Shown here: positions 1 through 37,132 of the stretch, piece after piece
Position numbering within the stretch: position 1 is the stretch's first letter
Layout of the letters: each line of letters opens with the position of its first letter
Virus genome (UHGV): UHGV-0186551
Length of the DNA: 38,300 nucleotides
Reading direction: 5' to 3' (one strand)
Origin: a virus
Notes under the pieces: generated by a model
What the model was told of the DNA's origin: nothing
What the model saw: only the letters and a program-made list of their open reading frames with translations
Database searches by the model: none
Made by a program: the position numbers and the translations under genes

Positions 1-14
1 TAGTATAAAAAAGC
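1..14. repeat. att core (attR copy), tagtataaaaaagc; window begins inside the core
   Basis: Identical to 37207..37220; is the reverse complement of the lambda core GCTTTTTTATACTAA (first base presumably just left of position 1). Confidence 0.85.
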
Positions 15-160
15 TGAACGTGAAACACTAAAAACCATTAATATCAATGCATTACAATAAATTTAGCTTAAAAAATAGACTATATAATACTGCAAAACGC
101 AACATATGCAGTCACTATGAATCAACTACTTAGATAGTATTAGTGACCTGTAACAGAGCA
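15..160. other. attR P-arm (Int arm-site/IHF/Xis binding region, phage side of attR)
   Basis: Sequence following the core recalls the lambda attP P-arm in reverse complement (recollection, not aligned); individual protein sites not mapped. Confidence 0.55.
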
Positions 161-201
161 TTAGCGCAAGGTGATTTTTGTCTTCTTGCGCTAATTTTTT
201 G
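161..201 (+). terminator. sib/tI-like hairpin with T-run (int retroregulation element in the free phage)
   Basis: ttagcgcaag ... cttgcgctaa inverted repeat followed by tttttt. Confidence 0.5.
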
Positions 202-290
202 TCAACATACTGGGTTATCTGAATTTACAGCCATGCTCAGTATCTCGATAAGCGCAGAGAAATGATGCAGTGGTGGGCGGACTGGCTTGA

Positions 291-314
291 TGAAAAGGTG
301 GAGTGAACCACCTT
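291..314 (-). terminator. Possible terminator hairpin downstream of the 218-aa gene
   Basis: aaggtgg/ccacctt stem with adjacent A-run on + (U-run on - transcript). Confidence 0.3.
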
Positions 315-422: not shown

Positions 423-1079
423 TTATGAACTATAATAAGTCCTAATCTTTACAGATGAAAGCATAATCTTCCAAGCTTGATCGCTACCCAACCACTCATC
501 GTTGGTTGGTTCATTATCACCAGATACTACATAAGTATCTGGCATATCAAAGTCTATATTGCAAAGGTCTTCTCCTTTGCGCTCCTTAAAAATAAGAAGA
601 TCTATTTTTGTTGTTGGGAATTTTTTATCCAAAACACTTCTCAGTTTATACACAGCATCTCGTTCTGCATTCAATCTAACGAGTAAAACACGTTCCGACT
701 CATTGATTTTCTCTATAAATCTTTTTCTTCTCGCCTTTATTTTTTTCATCATATTAAACAAGCAGACTTCAATACCTTGTTTTTCATAGTCATCAATAAG
801 AATATCGTGAATACTTCGAAATCCAGTCGCTGTATCTGTGATATCAATACAATTTTTAAATCTGCCATTAATTTTTATATTTTCAGGCAAGAAAAGGTGG
901 TCGCACCCCTTATTAATTATTTTTGTAACTTGAGGTAGTTTTTGAGAGGCAAACCAATCAAATGGTCCACTAAATGTCCTCAACCCAAATCGCTTTAACC
1001 TTCCTGCTGGTTGACATTTTTTACCAAGGCTTGCTATAAAATCATACTCTCCACAAGGAAGAAAAAGGCCTTTATTCAT
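423..1079 (-). CDS. Hypothetical protein, 218 aa; N-terminal motif SLGxxC...PFDW reminiscent of DUF1796 (putative papain-like fold); AT-rich accessory gene
   Basis: ORF track 423..1115; start moved to ATG at 1079 (MNKGLF...) which has an AGGAAA ribosome-binding site; AT-rich composition unlike the rest of the prophage. Confidence 0.7.
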   Translation of the reverse strand: MNKGLFLPCGEYDFIASLGKKCQPAGRLKRFGLRTFSGPFDWFASQKLPQVTKIINKGCDHLFLPENIKINGRFKNCIDITDTATGFRSIHDILIDDYEKQGIEVCLFNMMKKIKARRKRFIEKINESERVLLVRLNAERDAVYKLRSVLDKKFPTTKIDLLIFKERKGEDLCNIDFDMPDTYVVSGDNEPTNDEWLGSDQAWKIMLSSVKIRTYYSS

Positions 1080-1196
1080 ATGATTTTCCTTACATTTTAT
1101 GACGACAAAAATCATAACATTGCCTTATTAATCAGTCAAACAGTTAACAAATGCAAACAAACAAGTAAGCACATTGTTGATAATTTGTTTATTTTT

Positions 1197-1811
1197 ATGT
1201 TTTTGTTATCTATACCATTTTTTTCATTTGCTTCTGATACAAACAAAACGCCACCATATCGCATGAGGGAGTCGATGTTTGAGTTATTAAAGGAGCAAAG
1301 GGATATTGTTATGCTTGGCGATAGCATAACCGCGCGAGGAGAGTGGAATGAGCTTCTTCCTAGTTTATCTGTAGCAAATAGGGGCATTGGGGGAGATGAA
1401 GTTAAATTTATGAAAAGAAGGATTGATTCTATATTTTTATTAAAGCCCAAATATGTATTCATTATGGGCGGAACAAATGATTTCAGAAGAAAAAGAAGTG
1501 TTGATGATGTGGTTCGTGACTATAAGCATATAATAAAAAAACTACACAAACACAGAATTAATGTATTCATTCAGTCCACCCTTTACGTGTCAAGAGAAAG
1601 CAGGTTAAATGACAACATAAAAATATTAAAATTAAACAATGCAATAAATAACTATTGCTCTGTATCTAATTATTGTCGTTTCGTAGATCTTAACGTGCAC
1701 ATGGCAAAAGATAGAAAAATACTAGCTAAGTATAGCGATGATGGAGTCCATCTAAATGGTAATGGGTATTTAATGTGGGCGTCAATCATATACCCTTTAA
1801 TTAAAAAATAA
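1197..1811 (+). CDS. SGNH/GDSL-family hydrolase (esterase/lipase-like) with hydrophobic N-terminus, probably exported or membrane-anchored
   Basis: Motifs GDSIT, GIGGD, GGTNDF, DGVHLN in SGNH block order; N-terminal MFLLSIPFFSFA; start uncertain (ATG 1080, TTG 1185 or ATG 1197; track start 1011). Confidence 0.75.
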   Translation: MFLLSIPFFSFASDTNKTPPYRMRESMFELLKEQRDIVMLGDSITARGEWNELLPSLSVANRGIGGDEVKFMKRRIDSIFLLKPKYVFIMGGTNDFRRKRSVDDVVRDYKHIIKKLHKHRINVFIQSTLYVSRESRLNDNIKILKLNNAINNYCSVSNYCRFVDLNVHMAKDRKILAKYSDDGVHLNGNGYLMWASIIYPLIKK

Positions 1812-1817
1812 GAATAG

Positions 1818-1849
1818 TAAAAAACCATCTCATTATGAGGTGGTTTTTT
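1818..1849. terminator. Bidirectional rho-independent terminator between convergent hydrolase and tailspike genes
   Basis: Hairpin aaaaaccatctca / tgaggtggttttttt with A-run before and T-run after. Confidence 0.6.
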
Positions 1850-1930
1850 ATATAGAATAAAGCAATAGAGGTTTATTTTATTTGTTTATCATGGCTTAAT
1901 GCACTAGCACTTTAATTGAAAAAACTATAT

Positions 1931-4330
1931 TTATTTTAGTATCCATCCGGTATTTCCTGTTCCTGTTTTTTTTTGATACCAATCACCATTATAATCAATG
2001 TACATTGACCCCTTAGGTGCGGTCACAACACCCTCAGGTGAACCGGAGCCTCTATAAATTCCAAAGAGAGTTGTACCTCTTACTTTCTCGTATGCAAACA
2101 ACAAACCATCTGAAGCCCTTCTGATACGCAACGGTTCGTGCTCTGAGTCCGATGCAAATGTAGTGGTGCCGTTTGAATCTGTTTCCCTGGAAAAACTTCC
2201 ATCTGTTCTTGTTCCTTCAATGATCGAATTTGGGTAGTTTGGATCATCAGATGAATGTAACCTAATATAGGAACTATTTGATGCTGATACCCCCCTACCC
2301 CTTAAAATCAATCCCTTAAATGATGACGTAAATAGTGCCTGGATTGAGCCATAAACAGTGTTATCACTACCGTTTTGCTGATCGTATATTCTTAGTCTTG
2401 AGCTATTATCATACATAATAGCGTTGAAGTACTCACCAAGACGTTCGCTAAATGCAACAATATTAAAAGCATTGCGCCATCTAAATGATATATTTCGCCC
2501 GCTTTCTCCGGCATCTACACCTGCATTACTTGAAGCATTGGTTATGCCAGAATTAAGGTTCTGCTCATCGTTGTTACCAGTCGCTGGTCGTATAGAGTAA
2601 ATTGTCTTTTTCTCAAGAGAATAGCTACTTCCCCATCCATAATCTGTATCAGGACTCCAGTCTCCAGAATTTGCATCCTTGGTTGTTTCCACCCAATAAG
2701 AGCCATTTGATGGAGGAACACCAATTATTCCAGAAGTCTCAATAGATGATGCAGCCCATCTTCTTCCACGCCAGTTTACAATATTAGCTCCTGCCCTCCA
2801 TGTTTCTATGCAGCTTATAATTATTTCTTCGCCACGAATAGTTAAACCTTCCGGCTCGAATCTGGCTGGATTCCCAAGAGTTGGATGGTTAAGCAACCCA
2901 TCGCGCCCATATTGCGACCTTGCATCATCGATATCTAATTTTCTTAGTAAATTACCTGTTAAATCATATGTAAAGATATGATGCTTTCCAAAAGCATTAG
3001 TGCCTCCCTTAAGTATATGTATATATCTTCCATCAGACGCAATACCTTGTACAGAGTAAGCGCCTTCAGAAGGTGAGTCGCTCATTTCCCAAACAAACAT
3101 GGGGTTTGCTAATGTTTTATCTTCAAGTTTATCAATTGATATTTTATCGTATATAAATACAGTTCGTTTAGCGGCATCACTCTTTGGTGTATTAACCATT
3201 ATTAAAAGACGACCGTCAGAAGAAATGGCAATTCCTGCACGATTGTAATCTTGAAATGGGTGACCGCTACCAGTAATCCCCCATACATTATAACTTTTTA
3301 CGTCAGACTGAGTTGTTCCTGCCCCTCGCCAAGTTATTTTACTAAACCCTTTGCCTGCAGACTCCCCATCTTCACCTGAATTGGTTACACTTGATGTATA
3401 TAAATATACTTGACCATTCTCCACCATGGCAGAAAGATCAAATCCGTGCCCAAGGTTTAATTCTGGAGAATACGCAACATGGTTTACTACCCTTCCATCA
3501 TCATAAAGATTAAACTCAACAATACGAACTCTTTCTTTATCCGACCAGGTTGGCCCAACAGGCCGTTGTGTGACAAATAGTTTTTCAATGCCATTAACAC
3601 GGCAATATGCGATCCCCTGTAACGCATTTCTGGCATTAGGATAAATTTCTGTGTTTGTTTCTCCCTGAAAACCAAAAAAAGGTTCCATCATTTTTCTCTG
3701 CGCAAGTTTGTCAGTTTCAAGTAGACGAGAAACGGAAATAAGAGAGCCATTATCTGCAACAATCCTCCCAATACCTCGAGCAGAAGATACATCAACTTCG
3801 AGAGTATTTACTGCAAAATCGCCATCAGGAACAAACATTCTATAGCCTGCGTTAGAGAATGCCTCAGTAGCGTCAGTTATTCCATCACTGATAGCCCCCC
3901 AACCGCGAACATCTTTGTCATCACGCCATCGTGCAATCTGCAATTCGGGATATTTTTTAGCACCATCCGGGTCTTCTAACTGCTGCCGTAGCTGATCCGG
4001 GTCATACTTCAGCACATTAGGGAAATAGAACTGCTGAGTGCCATATGCATCATATACAGCCATAGAATGGCCTTGAACAGTTACGAATTTGGCAATCTGC
4101 CCGTTATATACCGGATATCCAGCAGCGTTAATGATGATTGGCTGCGAAACAGGAACATGAGAGCCGTCTTCGTTCTCTACATAAACCTGAATCTGGTTTT
4201 CTGGACTTACCGGGTCAGTGTCAATTTTTCCGATATAAATTTTGCCGTTGGCTACTGCTTTAAAAGAACGCGCCATAGTGAAGAGTTGCGAAGGCATACT
4301 CACTACAACATTGGCTGTAATGTCTGTCAT
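1931..4330 (-). CDS. Tailspike, 799 aa: P22-type N-terminal head-binding domain joined to a divergent receptor-binding domain
   Basis: First ~115 aa ([11 protein letters not shown]...[11 protein letters not shown]...LKYDPDQ) match P22 tailspike N-terminus from memory; remainder unrecognised. Confidence 0.9.
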
Positions 4331-4494
4331 TTAATTTTCTCCAGACGTAGCAATGCGGAACAAGATGCAACTTGCCCGGCATTGCATTAATGTAAGTTAT
4401 GATTTGTTAACTATGAGATGAGTCTATGCAAAAAGATCTGTTGAATATTGCGTTCTATATATTTGGTTTTTGCACATTTCTGGTGTTTGCAAAG

Positions 4495-35865: not shown

Positions 35866-36084
35866 ATGTACTTGACACTTCAGGAGTGGAACGCACGCCA
35901 GCGACGCCCAAGAAGCCTTGAAACAGTTCGTCGATGGGTACGCGAGTGCAGGATATTCCCTCCTCCTGTTAAGGACGGAAGAGAGTATTTGTTCCACGAA
36001 TCAGCGGTAAAGGTTGACTTAAATCGACCAGTAACAGGTAGCCTTTTGAAGAGGATCAGAAATGGGAAGAAGGCGAAGTCATGA
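35866..36084 (+). CDS. xis: Excisionase Xis
   Basis: 72 aa, MYLTLQEWNARQRRPRSLETVRRWVRECRIFPPPVKDGREYLFHESAVKVDLNRPVTG.LLKRIRNGKKAKS as in lambda Xis. Confidence 0.95.
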   Translation: MYLTLQEWNARQRRPRSLETVRRWVRECRIFPPPVKDGREYLFHESAVKVDLNRPVTGSLLKRIRNGKKAKS

Positions 36085-37132
36085 GCGCCGGGATTTACCC
36101 CCTAATCTTTATATAAGAAACAATGGATATTACTGCTACAGGGACCCAAGAACGGGTAAAGAGTTTGGATTAGGCCGAGACAGGAGGATAGCAATCACTG
36201 AAGCAATACAGGCCAACATTGAGTTATTTTCAGGACACAAACACAAGCCTCTGACAGCGAGAATCAACAGTGATAATTCTGTTACGTTACATTCATGGCT
36301 TGATCGCTACGAAAAAATCCTCGCCAGCAGAGGAATCAAGCAGAAGACACTTATAAATTACATGAGCAAAATTAAAGCAATAAGGAGGGGTCTGCCTGAT
36401 GCTCCACTTGAAGACATCACCACAAAAGAAATTGCGGCAATGCTCAATGGATACATAGACGAGGGCAAGGCGGCATCAGCCAAGTTAATCAGATCAACAC
36501 TGAGCGATGCATTCCGAGAGGCAATAGCTGAAGGCCATATAACAACAAACCCGGTCGCTGCCACTCGCGCAGCAAAATCAGAGGTAAGGAGATCAAGGCT
36601 TACGGCTGACGAATACCTGAAAATTTATCAAGCAGCAGAATCATCACCATGTTGGTTAAGACTTGCAATGGAACTGGCTGTTGTTACCGGGCAGCGAGTT
36701 GGTGATTTATGCGAAATGAAGTGGTCTGATATCGTAGATGGATATCTTTATGTCGAGCAAAGCAAAACAGGCGTAAAAATTGCCATCCCTACAACATTGC
36801 ATGTTGATGCTCTCGGGATATCAATGAAGGAAACACTTGATAAATGCAAAGAGATTCTTGGCGGAGAAACCATAATTGCATCTACTCGTCGTGAACCGCT
36901 TTCATCCGGCACAGTATCAAGGTATTTTATGCGCGCACGAAAAGCATCAGGTCTTTCCTTCGAAGGGGATCCGCCTACCTTTCACGAGTTGCGCAGTTTG
37001 TCTGCAAGACTCTATGAGAAGCAGATAAGCGATAAATTTGCTCAACATCTTCTCGGGCATAAGTCGGACACCATGGCATCACAGTATCGTGATGACAGAG
37101 GCAGGGAGTGGGACAAAATTGAAATCAAATAA
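36062..37132 (+). CDS. int: Tyrosine integrase Int
   Basis: 356 aa matching lambda Int as recalled; overlaps xis 3' end as in lambda. Confidence 0.95.
   Translation: MGRRRSHERRDLPPNLYIRNNGYYCYRDPRTGKEFGLGRDRRIAITEAIQANIELFSGHKHKPLTARINSDNSVTLHSWLDRYEKILASRGIKQKTLINYMSKIKAIRRGLPDAPLEDITTKEIAAMLNGYIDEGKAASAKLIRSTLSDAFREAIAEGHITTNPVAATRAAKSEVRRSRLTADEYLKIYQAAESSPCWLRLAMELAVVTGQRVGDLCEMKWSDIVDGYLYVEQSKTGVKIAIPTTLHVDALGISMKETLDKCKEILGGETIIASTRREPLSSGTVSRYFMRARKASGLSFEGDPPTFHELRSLSARLYEKQISDKFAQHLLGHKSDTMASQYRDDRGREWDKIEIK

What the first reader, a model, noticed from the sequence alone, without database searches (positions are those of the whole stretch)
423..1930. AT-rich divergent gene pair between tailspike and attR: exported SGNH/GDSL hydrolase plus DUF1796-like protein
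This segment is clearly more AT-rich than the rest of the prophage, which marks it as acquired cargo. It holds two divergently transcribed genes around a short AT-rich intergenic region, closed off on the tailspike side by a bidirectional terminator (1818..1849). One gene is an SGNH/GDSL hydrolase with a hydrophobic N-terminus. The other is an unknown 218-aa protein with an SLGxxC...PFDW motif. In P22-like and lambdoid phages the region next to the tailspike and att often carries lysogenic-conversion or exclusion genes that remodel the cell surface. This pair could be an undescribed surface-modification or defence module.
Basis: partly seen in the sequence, partly recalled or inferred. Interest (0 to 1): 0.8.

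Follow-up and report, generated by a model that had tools for sequence, protein, structure and literature searches.

The report
Capsule-tailoring gene pair beside tailspike
Two intact prophage genes, an exported SGNH esterase and a cytoplasmic enzyme of the unstudied DUF1796 family, travel with a matching tailspike and also sit inside K24-type capsule gene clusters, so they most likely re-decorate the host's K24 capsule, the probable phage receptor.

Summary
Window 423-1930 is AT-rich (GC 0.32; rest of the window 0.485). It carries a divergent pair: a DUF1796 gene (423-1079, minus strand) and a GDSL/SGNH gene (about 1197-1811, plus strand). A strong hairpin at 1818-1850 closes it.

The window is a P22-like E. 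coli prophage at the lambda att site beside bioA/ybhB.

Comparative genomics gives the pair a context:
- The same divergent pair, at 45-60% protein identity, lies inside K24-like (Kdo plus glycerol-phosphate) group-2 capsule loci of Pseudomonas, next to an exported beta-propeller protein.
- It also lies next to homologous propeller-type tailspikes in at least three other temperate phage backgrounds.
- The E. coli carriers checked have a K24 kps locus that lacks the pair. The pair occurs in 34 of 5,426 complete genomes, and in 14 of 30 K24 genomes inspected.

The SGNH protein has all its catalytic blocks. Its closest solved relative is a sialate 9-O-acetylesterase. DUF1796 has an invariant Cys and His and is repeatedly fused to glycosyltransferases. 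Its confident model is an alpha/beta sandwich, not papain-like.

Best reading: a capsule-decoration (O-acyl editing) lysogenic-conversion cassette, analogous in role to neuO of phage CUS-3 but built from different enzymes. The chemistry is inferred, not shown.

The parts
1..222 (.). attR: lambda attP-like arm, including a sib/tI-like inverted repeat at 153-202
   Evidence: 87-93% identical to the attP regions of lambda, 434 and HK106. ybhB and bioA lie just outside in the host record. Inverted repeat I2.
223..306 (+). Remnant of the 3' end of an intS-type integrase gene, left by an integration-module swap
   Evidence: Annotated as a partial CDS in NZ_AP022003. In 30 other genomes a complete intS at tRNA-Arg (argW) abuts the same block from position 223 on.
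423..1079 (-). DUF1796 gene, 218 aa, cytoplasmic. Invariant Cys22 (nt 1014-1016) and His91 (nt 807-809); Asp92 nearly invariant.
   Evidence: Pfam PF08795 E 7e-16. Invariant residues across 63 diverse relatives. No hydrophobic segment, maximum KD15 0.95. AF2 model pLDDT 95.8.
1111..1139 (-). Promoter-like site for the DUF1796 gene: TTGACT, 17 nt, TG-n-TATGAT
   Evidence: 10 of 12 consensus match with an extended -10. AAGGA lies 7 nt before ATG 1079. This is a prediction only.
1080..1196 (.). AT-rich divergent intergenic region (GC 0.256)
   Evidence: The divergent arrangement with a short spacer is kept in every related locus.
1197..1811 (+). Exported SGNH/GDSL esterase gene, 204 aa from ATG 1197. 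Alternative starts: TTG 1185, ATG 1080, and PGAP's 1275. Ser nt 1323-1325, Asn 1476-1478, Asp 1740-1742, His 1749-1751.
   Evidence: PF13472 E 2e-21. Invariant SGNH blocks and signal peptides in homologues. E 1e-24 to P. vulgatus sialate 9-O-acetylesterase 7pzg/6njc; profile E 1e-46.
1182..1232 (+). Hydrophobic signal-peptide-like segment NLFIFMFLLSIPFFSFA, with Ser at -3 and Ala at -1 before Ser-Asp
   Evidence: KD15 2.39. It aligns with Sec-type signal peptides of homologues. The solved homologue PvSAE also has a signal peptide (PMC9063846).
1818..1850 (.). Hairpin flanked by an A-run and a T-run; a likely bidirectional intrinsic terminator between the esterase and tailspike genes
1931..4330 (-). 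Tailspike, 799 aa. Head-binding domain at nt 3992-4330. The beta-propeller region at nt 2837-3541 is homologous to the exported propeller proteins of K24-type capsule loci.
   Evidence: PF09008 E 1e-66 and a weak PF21311 match. 23-34% identity to Pseudomonas and E. coli K24_8-type proteins, E 4e-9 to 7e-9. 54-59% identity to the tailspikes that accompany the pair in other phages.
900..3855 (.). Diverged cassette that co-varies between prophage lineages: the first ~55 codons of DUF1796, the intergenic region, the esterase gene, the terminator and the tailspike receptor-binding part
   Evidence: Compared with the prophage of strain PK5, DNA is 100% identical at 380-860. It falls to 70-78% at 920-1040 and to about 50-60% through the esterase gene. 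It is undetectable in the tailspike body and resumes at 3856-4345. The proteins are 53-54% identical.

Best explanation
The pair is a capsule-tailoring lysogenic-conversion cassette that belongs with the tailspike next to it.

The prophage infects E. coli with the K24 group-2 capsule, a polymer of Kdo and glycerol phosphate. Its tailspike carries a beta-propeller related to an exported protein of K24-type capsule loci and probably binds or cleaves that capsule.

From their own divergent promoters, the prophage makes two enzymes that the E. coli K24 locus lacks:
- a cytoplasmic DUF1796 enzyme that acts on the polymer or its precursor through a Cys-His centre, most simply by adding an O-acyl (acetyl) group via a thioester intermediate;
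- an exported SGNH esterase that removes or edits O-acyl groups on the polymer in the periplasm or at the surface.

Together they would change the decoration of the capsule. That would alter recognition by the linked tailspike (superinfection exclusion, or a receptor-destroying effect) and change K antigenicity.

Shown: gene identities, intact catalytic motifs, the conserved pairing, the link to K24-like loci and to homologous tailspikes, and the K24 genotype of carriers.

Inferred: expression in the lysogen, export, the substrate, the acyl chemistry and the effect on phage adsorption.
For: 1. Conserved module. The divergent DUF1796/GDSL pair recurs at 49-62% and 43-53% identity in:
- Pseudomonas taetrolens, P. 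guariconensis and metagenome contigs;
- a second E. coli P22-like lineage;
- a high-GC temperate siphovirus with an integrase.

2. Capsule context. In Pseudomonas the pair sits inside kps-type loci, directly beside an exported PF21311 propeller protein and in the same order and orientation as tailspike-esterase-DUF1796 in the window. These loci encode KpsC/S, KpsD, KpsE, KpsF, KdsA, a KdsB-phosphatase fusion, TagD-like, TagF-like and GT29-like proteins.

3. Host capsule.
- The Pseudomonas region 2 matches E. coli region 2 at 65% DNA identity.
- That E. coli locus is present in the window's own host, in strain 7/2 and in pig strain PK5, which carries the diverged cassette.
- It matches K24_8 to K24_12 of the kTYPr catalogue (PMC13171606 supplement).
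- It is 96% identical, over its full length, to region 2 of strain A0 34/86, serotype O83:K24:H31 (PMC5063008).
- The E. coli K24 locus has no esterase or DUF1796 gene.

4. Association. The pair is in 34 of 5,426 complete genomes and the full K24 region 2 in 61. Of 30 K24 genomes listed, 14 carry the pair (hypergeometric p about 1e-24).

5. Co-variation. The tailspike receptor part (54% identity), the esterase (53%) and the DUF1796 N-terminus diverge together.

6. Enzymology.
- The esterase has invariant SGNH blocks. Its closest solved relative is an exported sialate 9-O-acetylesterase, and Kdo is the 8-carbon analogue of sialic acid.
- A related esterase sits in another Kdo-type capsule locus together with a hexapeptide acetyltransferase.
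- DUF1796 has invariant Cys22 and His91.
- It is fused to RgpF, GT2, GT8/GT4 and pyruvyl-transferase domains.
- It neighbours glycosyltransferase and sugar-nucleotide genes in Bacillales.

7. Position and precedent.
- The pair occupies the slot at the integrase/att end next to the tailspike.
- CUS-3-like phages, which carry the capsule O-acetyltransferase gene neuO, use the same two insertion sites, argW and pgl-bioA. NeuO protects against K1 phage (PMC9659370).
Against: - No expression, export, enzymatic or phenotypic data exist.
- I could not confirm that K24 polysaccharide carries any O-acyl group. The E. coli K24 locus has no recognised acetyltransferase, so the esterase has a substrate only if DUF1796 (chemistry unproven) or another enzyme writes one.
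- This esterase allele has no Shine-Dalgarno sequence and no basic n-region before its hydrophobic core. PGAP calls a shorter, cytoplasmic form.
- The Pseudomonas loci have both a NeuD-like hexapeptide transferase and DUF1796, so DUF1796 need not be the acyl 'writer'.
- One siphovirus contig has DUF1796 next to a homologous tail fibre with no esterase gene in the 240 nt before the contig end.
- Two carriers (WCHEC4533, WCHEC000837) retain only a fragment of K24 region 2. Two others have IS1 inside the pair region.
- Most carriers are 99.9-100% identical, so the association statistic is inflated by clonality.
Confidence: 0.5

Rival explanations
1. The esterase works for the phage rather than for the lysogen. 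It strips O-acyl groups that would block the tailspike depolymerase, or acts as a receptor-destroying enzyme that frees progeny. This would parallel sialate esterases that unmask sialic acid for sialidases, and the viral HE/HEF esterases. DUF1796 would be an accessory of unknown role.
For: - The closest characterised relative, PvSAE/EstA, exists to make acetylated sialic acid accessible to sialidases. Viral SGNH esterases are receptor-destroying enzymes (PMC9063846).
- The esterase co-varies with the tailspike receptor part.
- In capsule loci it sits beside the exported propeller homologue.
Against: - It has a signal peptide and its own divergent transcription unit, separated from the tail operon by a hairpin.
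- Where an integrase is present, it lies at the integrase/att end of the temperate phage.
- It is not fused to a virion protein.
- This reading does not explain the conserved cytoplasmic partner.
Confidence: 0.2
2. The two genes are passengers. They were captured from a capsule locus together with the propeller domain that became the tailspike receptor-binding part, and they have no role in E. coli lysogens.
For: - The three-gene order matches the Pseudomonas capsule loci.
- The segment is AT-rich and mosaic.
- Two strains have IS1 insertions in the pair region.
- The translation signals of the esterase gene are weak.
Against: - Both reading frames are intact, with every catalytic or invariant residue kept, at about 50% divergence in at least three phage backgrounds and two E. 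coli alleles.
- 32 genomes keep them 99.7-100% identical.
Confidence: 0.1
3. DUF1796 is, as its Pfam name says, a papain-like cysteine peptidase, and the pair is a defence, exclusion or toxin-like system unrelated to polysaccharide.
For: - Cys and His are invariant.
- The Pfam and NCBI names say so.
- Moron slots often hold defence genes.
Against: - There is no significant PADLOC match.
- Context and domain fusions across the family all involve glycan synthesis.
Confidence: 0.05
4. The exported SGNH enzyme is a lysophospholipase-type lipase. It would cut the lyso-phosphatidylglycerol anchor of the group-2 capsule, or transfer acyl chains from phospholipid, and so release or re-anchor the capsule.
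For: Sources annotate it as 'lysophospholipase L1-like esterase'. Group-2 capsules are lipid-anchored (general knowledge).
Against: It is far closer to sialate O-acetylesterases (E 1e-24) than to TesA (the NCBIfam TesA model scores 16.8 bits against a cut-off of 270).
Confidence: 0.05

Closest known systems
neuO of the P22-like prophage CUS-3 (capsule O-acetylation of E. coli K1)
   Same: Both are P22-like temperate phages of a group-2-capsulated E. coli. The cargo lies at the integrase/att end next to a capsule-specific tailspike. The two insertion sites, argW and the pgl-bioA region, are the same (PMC9659370). The presumed role is also the same: changing the capsule that serves as receptor.
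   Different: NeuO is a single hexapeptide-repeat acetyltransferase with phase-variable repeats. Here there are two unrelated enzymes (SGNH esterase plus DUF1796), no tandem repeats, a different capsule (K24), and no experimental proof.
Phocaeicola vulgatus / Bacteroides fragilis sialate 9-O-acetylesterase (PvSAE/EstA; PDB 7pzg, 6njc)
   Same: It is the closest solved relative (E 1e-24 for the single sequence, 1e-46 for the profile). Shared features are the SGNH blocks, the Ser-His-Asp triad, the N-terminal helix and a signal peptide.
   Different: Identity is only roughly 30%. PvSAE serves glycan foraging, whereas here the context is capsule loci and phage tails. The substrate is untested and is probably an acylated Kdo/glycerol-phosphate polymer rather than sialic acid.
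Acetyltransferase/esterase pairs that set O-acetyl levels (NeuD with the NeuA esterase domain in K1/GBS; PatA/PatB with Ape1 in peptidoglycan; CASD1 with SIAE)
   Same: A 'writer' and an SGNH-type 'eraser' are encoded together and act on one glycan. (General knowledge; CASD1/SIAE is cited in PMC9063846.)
   Different: The putative writer here is DUF1796, which belongs to none of the known acetyltransferase families (LbH, MBOAT, AT3, alpha/beta-hydrolase). It has no membrane segment, so it cannot feed a periplasmic transferase.
gtrABC of P22 and oac of Sf6 (O-antigen conversion genes next to the tailspike)
   Same: Same genomic slot and same logic: the prophage alters the polysaccharide its own tailspike recognises (general knowledge).
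   Different: Those act on O antigen through membrane glycosyl- or acetyltransferases. Here the target is an ABC-transporter-dependent capsule, and the enzymes are soluble.
K24 kps region 2 (K24_8 to K24_12) of E. coli, and K24-like loci of Pseudomonas
   Same: The Pseudomonas loci hold the same esterase/DUF1796 pair next to the K24_8-type propeller. The tailspike propeller is homologous to K24_8.
   Different: The E. coli K24 locus itself lacks the pair. In E. coli it is supplied only by prophages.

Membership tests
SGNH/GDSL hydrolases (Pfam PF13472/PF00657) | Profile match above the curated threshold | tested here: met
   PF13472 77.7 bits (cut-off 32.9); PF00657 44.3 bits (cut-off 23.6).
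SGNH/GDSL hydrolases (Pfam PF13472/PF00657) | Block I GDS Ser, block II Gly, block III Asn, block V Asp-x-x-His | tested here: met
   In the 243-aa frame, S82, G102/G105, N133, D221 and H224 are invariant or nearly invariant in 18 homologues and present in the window protein.
Sialate 9-O-acetylesterases of the PvSAE/EstA type | Close sequence relationship to the solved, assayed enzymes, including the N-terminal helix and signal peptide | tested here: met
   phmmer E 1.2e-24 over residues 17-202. The profile gives E 6.5e-46. Signal peptide and helix are described in PMC9063846.
Sialate 9-O-acetylesterases of the PvSAE/EstA type | Hydrolysis of 9-O-acetyl sialic acid | not testable with these tools
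   An enzyme assay is needed. The context, Kdo-type capsule loci with no sialic-acid genes, suggests a different ulosonic-acid or glycerol ester.
DUF1796 (Pfam PF08795) | Profile match above the curated threshold, with the conserved SLGxxC and PxDW motifs | tested here: met
   58.9 bits against a cut-off of 23. G19, C22, H91 and W203 are invariant in 63 diverse members.
Papain-like cysteine peptidases (the function implied by the DUF1796 name) | Papain-like fold | tested here: not met
Papain-like cysteine peptidases (the function implied by the DUF1796 name) | Conserved Cys and His that could form a catalytic dyad | tested here: met
   C22 and H91 are invariant.
Prophage lysogenic-conversion morons acting on the phage's polysaccharide receptor (neuO, oac, gtr type) | Location at the integrase/att end next to the tailspike of a temperate phage, as a separate transcription unit | tested here: met
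   A promoter-like site and a hairpin are predicted.
Prophage lysogenic-conversion morons acting on the phage's polysaccharide receptor (neuO, oac, gtr type) | Expression in the lysogen and an altered receptor or serotype | not testable with these tools
   RNA-seq, capsule chemistry and adsorption assays are needed.
Extracytoplasmic O-acetylation systems (MBOAT or AT3 partner plus SGNH transferase: PatA/B, OafA/B, AlgI/J/X, DltB/D) | A membrane-embedded acyl-translocating partner | tested here: not met
   DUF1796 has no hydrophobic segment (maximum KD15 0.95). No MBOAT or AT3 gene lies in the cassette. hhalign of DUF1796 against the SGNH family gives probability 0.3%.
Known anti-phage defence systems (PADLOC-DB) | Match to a defence-system protein model | tested here: not met
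   DUF1796 has no hit. The esterase has only a 12.5-bit chance match.
K24-type (Kdo/glycerol-phosphate) group-2 capsule loci | The pair is encoded within, or found together with, TagD-like, GT29-like, TagF-like, TPR and propeller genes flanked by kps export genes | tested here: met
   Within the locus in Pseudomonas and in metagenome contigs. In E. coli the locus is present in the same genomes but lacks the pair.

The most novel reading that the evidence does not exclude
DUF1796 is an unrecognised family of cytoplasmic glycan O-acyl (acetyl) transferases that use a Cys-His thioester mechanism on an SGNH-like scaffold. With its exported SGNH esterase partner and a matching propeller receptor-binding domain, it forms a portable three-gene 'recognise, write and erase' capsule module. 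This module moves between capsule loci and the tail modules of podoviruses and siphoviruses. In E. coli it would create prophage-encoded variants of the K24 antigen that kps-based typing cannot see.
Probability: 0.25. Interest if true: 0.8.

Novelty: new variant of a known kind. Interest (0 to 1): 0.64.

Why it matters
- Capsule modification encoded outside the kps locus is an acknowledged gap. The 2026 kTYPr study states that such modifying genes remain to be identified and that some K types cannot be told apart genetically for that reason (PMC13171606). This cassette is a concrete, testable candidate for K24.
- Most of the carriers are human clinical or wastewater isolates. The one matching phage record comes from a study of carbapenemase-producing E. 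coli that names ST405 among the high-risk clones. Altered capsule decoration would affect phage therapy, serotyping and possibly immune recognition.
- It would give a first functional handle on DUF1796. The family has about 2,000 sequence clusters, including members in Bacillales glycan loci (some next to endospore-appendage genes) and in giant viruses. I found no literature on it.
- It documents a receptor-binding domain and its cognate glycan-editing enzymes moving as one unit between capsule loci and phages.

Tried and rejected
- Full-text searches for DUF1796 and PF08795 found no paper. Searches for the PDB codes 2G6T and 6MTZ gave nothing useful.
- Sequence searches of DUF1796 profiles against PDB gave only chance hits.
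- Foldseek against PDB gave no match at E <= 0.001.
- The AFDB fold libraries were not available.
- PADLOC gave no defence match. NCBIfam had no specific model. PHROGs had none for DUF1796.
- tRNA and Rfam scans of the region were empty.
- The simple terminator scan missed the 1818-1850 hairpin and flagged a weak one inside the DUF1796 gene, which I disregard.
- I first took the tailspike of the second E. coli lineage for an unrelated beta-helix protein, from a faint Pfam tag. Direct comparison showed it is a 54% identical homologue, so I withdrew that reading.
- I first read 635 of 5,426 genomes as K24-like from a distant blastn search. A stricter search gave 61 with the full region 2.
- I considered a C-x4-R phosphatase-like loop (C22...R27). 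I dropped it because R27 is not conserved in the wider family.
- The K24 TPR protein was checked as a possible alpha/beta-hydrolase acetyltransferase. Only a faint UPF0227 hit appeared, which is inconclusive.
Full report
**Observation**

The segment is as described.
- ORF listing and Pfam place a 218-aa DUF1796 protein on the minus strand at 423-1079 (E 7e-16) and a GDSL/SGNH hydrolase on the plus strand ending at 1811 (E 2e-21).
- GC is 0.324 for 423-1930. Windows of the same size across the rest of the window have mean 0.485, sd 0.030 and minimum 0.401.
- A 16-nt-arm hairpin at 1818-1850 folds at -18.9 kcal/mol (z -6.6) on the plus strand and -13.0 (z -4.3) on the minus strand. It is flanked by A and T runs.
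- The neighbouring gene, 1931-4330 on the minus strand, is a tailspike with the P22 head-binding domain.
- Positions 1-222 match the lambda attP arm.

**Source**

The window is identical to a P22-like (Lederbergvirus-type) prophage of E. coli WP3-W18-ESBL-08, integrated beside ybhB and bioA. In 30 other complete genomes, and in phage vB_EcoP-683R2, the same block from position 223 onward abuts an intS integrase at tRNA-Arg argW. Window 223-306 is the leftover 3' end of that integrase gene.

**Gene models**

The DUF1796 gene has a promoter-like site (TTGACT, 17 nt, TG-n-TATGAT at 1139-1111) and an AAGGA ribosome-binding site. The start of the esterase gene is uncertain.
- PGAP uses ATG 1275, which has a good Shine-Dalgarno sequence and gives 178 aa.
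- Every close homologue carries a Sec-type signal peptide followed by a conserved PPYxMRxSLF stretch that lies upstream of that start.
- This stretch aligns with the N-terminal helix of the solved sialate esterase. The structure paper describes that helix as gating the active site, in an enzyme that itself has a signal peptide (PMC9063846).
- I therefore prefer ATG 1197 or TTG 1185, which gives an exported protein. This allele has no Shine-Dalgarno sequence and no basic n-region, so export is inferred, not shown.

**The pair is a conserved unit**

Relatives of the two proteins share contigs. Wherever enough DNA is available they are adjacent and divergent.
- In Pseudomonas taetrolens, P. guariconensis and several metagenome contigs they lie inside ABC-transporter (kps-type) capsule loci. 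These encode KpsC/S, KpsD, KpsE, KpsF, KdsA, a KdsB-phosphatase fusion, a TagD-like cytidylyltransferase, a TagF-like glycerophosphotransferase, a GT29-like transferase and a hexapeptide transferase.
- Directly next to the esterase gene there is an exported protein of about 330-350 aa with a five-bladed propeller domain (PF21311). The order and orientation are the same as tailspike-esterase-DUF1796 in the window.
- The window tailspike is homologous to these propeller proteins over residues 264-498 (E 4e-9).

**The K24 link**
- The Pseudomonas region 2 matches, at 65% DNA identity, the capsule region 2 of the E. coli strains that carry the prophage.
- That region has five genes: a 131-aa cytidylyltransferase, a GT29-like protein, a TagF-like protein, a 385-aa TPR protein and an exported propeller annotated as 'phage baseplate protein'. 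It is flanked by kpsFEDUCS and kpsTM.
- It is present in strain 7/2, in the window's own host, and in pig strain PK5, which carries a diverged allele of the cassette.
- Gene order and sizes match K24_8 to K24_12 in the kTYPr catalogue. That catalogue cites the K24 structure paper of Lenter, Jann and Jann 1990. That the polymer consists of alpha-Kdo and glycerol phosphate is from my recollection of that paper's title.
- The region is 96% identical, over its full length, to that of strain A0 34/86, whose serotype is O83:K24:H31 (PMC5063008).
- The E. coli K24 locus lacks both the esterase and DUF1796 genes, so in E. coli only the prophage supplies them.
- The pair occurs in 34 of 5,426 complete genomes and the full K24 region 2 in 61. 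Of 30 K24 genomes listed, 14 carry the pair (hypergeometric p about 1e-24). This figure is inflated by clonality, but carriers differ in genome size and insertion site.
- Exceptions exist: two carriers keep only a fragment of region 2, and two have IS1 in the pair region.

**Linkage to the tailspike**
- The second E. coli lineage (PK5, EC19 and draft genomes) has DNA 100% identical to the window over 380-860. Identity falls to 70-78% at 920-1040 and to about 50-60% through the intergenic region and the esterase gene. It is undetectable in the tailspike body and returns at 3856-4345, the head-binding domain.
- At the protein level the two tailspikes are 54.5% identical and the esterases 53%.
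- A temperate siphovirus with GC near 0.6 has the order integrase, lysis genes, DUF1796, esterase, a 74-aa ORF, tailspike. Its tailspike is 59% identical to the window's.
- Another siphovirus contig has DUF1796 beside a tail fibre whose receptor part is 29% identical (E 2e-59) and which ends in a Peptidase_S74 chaperone domain.
- The receptor-binding domain and the two enzymes therefore travel and diverge together across phage morphotypes.
- DUF1796 is otherwise almost absent from phages: 1 of 50,697 records, which is this same prophage.

**What the proteins are**

Esterase
- It has all SGNH blocks.
- Its nearest solved relatives are the exported sialate 9-O-acetylesterases of Phocaeicola vulgatus (E 1e-24 for the single sequence, 1e-46 for the profile).
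- A related esterase sits in another Kdo-type capsule locus together with a hexapeptide acetyltransferase.

DUF1796
- The family has about 2,000 clusters, with G19, C22, H91 and W203 invariant.
- It is fused in various proteins to RgpF, GT2, GT8/GT4 and polysaccharide pyruvyl-transferase domains.
- In Bacillales it sits among GT4 and sugar-nucleotide epimerase/dehydratase genes.
- It occurs in giant viruses, once fused to a glycosyltransferase.
- Its AF2 model is very confident (pLDDT 95.8). It is a three-layer alpha/beta sandwich with Cys22 in the loop after strand 1, at the start of helix 1.
- Profile comparison with SGNH is negative.
- The 'papain-like peptidase' label is therefore unsupported. 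A Cys-His acyl-enzyme chemistry on a glycan substrate is the most economical guess, but it is a guess.

**Mechanism proposed**

The prophage of a K24-capsulated host expresses, from a divergent promoter region insulated from the tail operon, a cytoplasmic DUF1796 enzyme and an exported SGNH esterase. The first would modify the nascent Kdo/glycerol-phosphate polymer or a precursor. The second would edit ester groups on the exported polymer.

The resulting change in decoration would alter recognition by the co-inherited tailspike and the K antigen.

The precedent is neuO of CUS-3-like P22-like phages. Those phages use the same two insertion sites, and neuO protects K1 strains from K1 phage (PMC9659370).

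Shown here: anatomy, conservation, context and host genotype. Inferred: expression, export, substrate, chemistry and phenotype.

**Rivals**
- A phage-side helper or receptor-destroying esterase (0.2).
- Hitch-hiking passengers of the captured receptor domain (0.1).
- A peptidase or defence system (0.05).
- A lipid-anchor lipase (0.05).

**Novelty**

Lysogenic conversion of a receptor polysaccharide is a known kind. A soluble SGNH/DUF1796 pair, its tie to K24-type capsules, and its co-transfer with a propeller receptor-binding domain between capsule loci and phages do not appear in the literature I could search. I therefore file it as a new variant of a known kind. It offers a route to the function of an unstudied enzyme family and to the 'modifying genes outside kps' problem raised in PMC13171606.

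Noticed in passing
window 1275 versus 1197/1185 (and L001 7275-7811): RefSeq/PGAP annotates the esterase as 178 aa starting at ATG 1275. This removes the signal peptide and part of the conserved N-terminal helix. Other pipelines aa from ATG 1080, which abuts the DUF1796 start codon (CAT|ATG). The true start is unresolved.
   Followed up: partly
window 143-205: An inverted repeat (153-170 / 185-202) followed by a T-run lies in the lambda-like att arm. It resembles the sib/tI retroregulation terminator of lambda.
   Followed up: no
window 223-306; far end of the window 36062-37132: A remnant of an intS-type integrase gene sits next to a lambda-type att arm, and a 356-aa ORF of lambda Int size lies at the other end of the window. 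The integration module has been swapped while the cargo and tailspike were kept. The two sites, argW and pgl-bioA, are the same two reported for CUS-3-like neuO phages.
   Followed up: partly
L022 22339-23307 (E. coli K24 kps region 2); rows H122-H147: The K24 locus encodes an exported five-bladed propeller protein that PGAP names 'phage baseplate protein'. A 537-nt fragment of this gene, at 98.9% identity, is all that matches in E. coli B/BL21/REL606 and in some other strains.
   Followed up: no
L022 20769-21926 and L004 10732-11949: The TPR protein of K24-type loci has an N-terminal domain with a GxSxGG motif and a faint UPF0227 (esterase-like) hit. It could be an alpha/beta-hydrolase-type enzyme, but its role is unknown.
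   Followed up: partly
L023 10615-10827; L027 4813-5037; L029 4221-4445: A small 70-74-aa ORF overlaps the end of the tailspike gene in the second E. coli lineage and in the siphovirus. It has no Pfam match and no counterpart in the window, where a 119-nt terminator spacer takes its place.
   Followed up: no
NZ_CP196266.1 and NZ_CP180393.1 (H152, H153): An IS1B element is inserted within the pair region in two carrier strains.
   Followed up: no
NZ_CP028589.2 and NZ_CP032879.1: Two strains carry the intact pair but match only a 537-nt fragment of K24 region 2. This suggests a capsule-locus change or decay after lysogeny.
   Followed up: no
L019/L020 6817-7712 and 8001-8624: In Psychrobacillus the DUF1796 gene lies next to two F-ENA (endospore appendage) genes, GT4 and sugar-nucleotide enzyme genes. 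This hints at a role in spore-surface glycans.
   Followed up: no
BFVD hits: The DUF1796 fold occurs in several Mimiviridae (moumouvirus, Catovirus, Megavirus, Bodo saltans virus). In Pyramimonas orientalis virus it is part of a 615-aa protein annotated as a glycosyltransferase.
   Followed up: no
L031 4439-5536 and 10001-10525: A different Kdo-type capsule locus pairs a related esterase (44% identity) with a beta-helix (NosD-like) protein and a hexapeptide acetyltransferase, but has no DUF1796 gene.
   Followed up: no
L026 1-240: In one siphovirus contig, DUF1796 sits beside the homologous tail fibre. The 240 nt before the contig end hold no esterase gene, only the start of an unrelated minus-strand ORF. 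DUF1796 may therefore also occur with the receptor domain on its own.
   Followed up: partly
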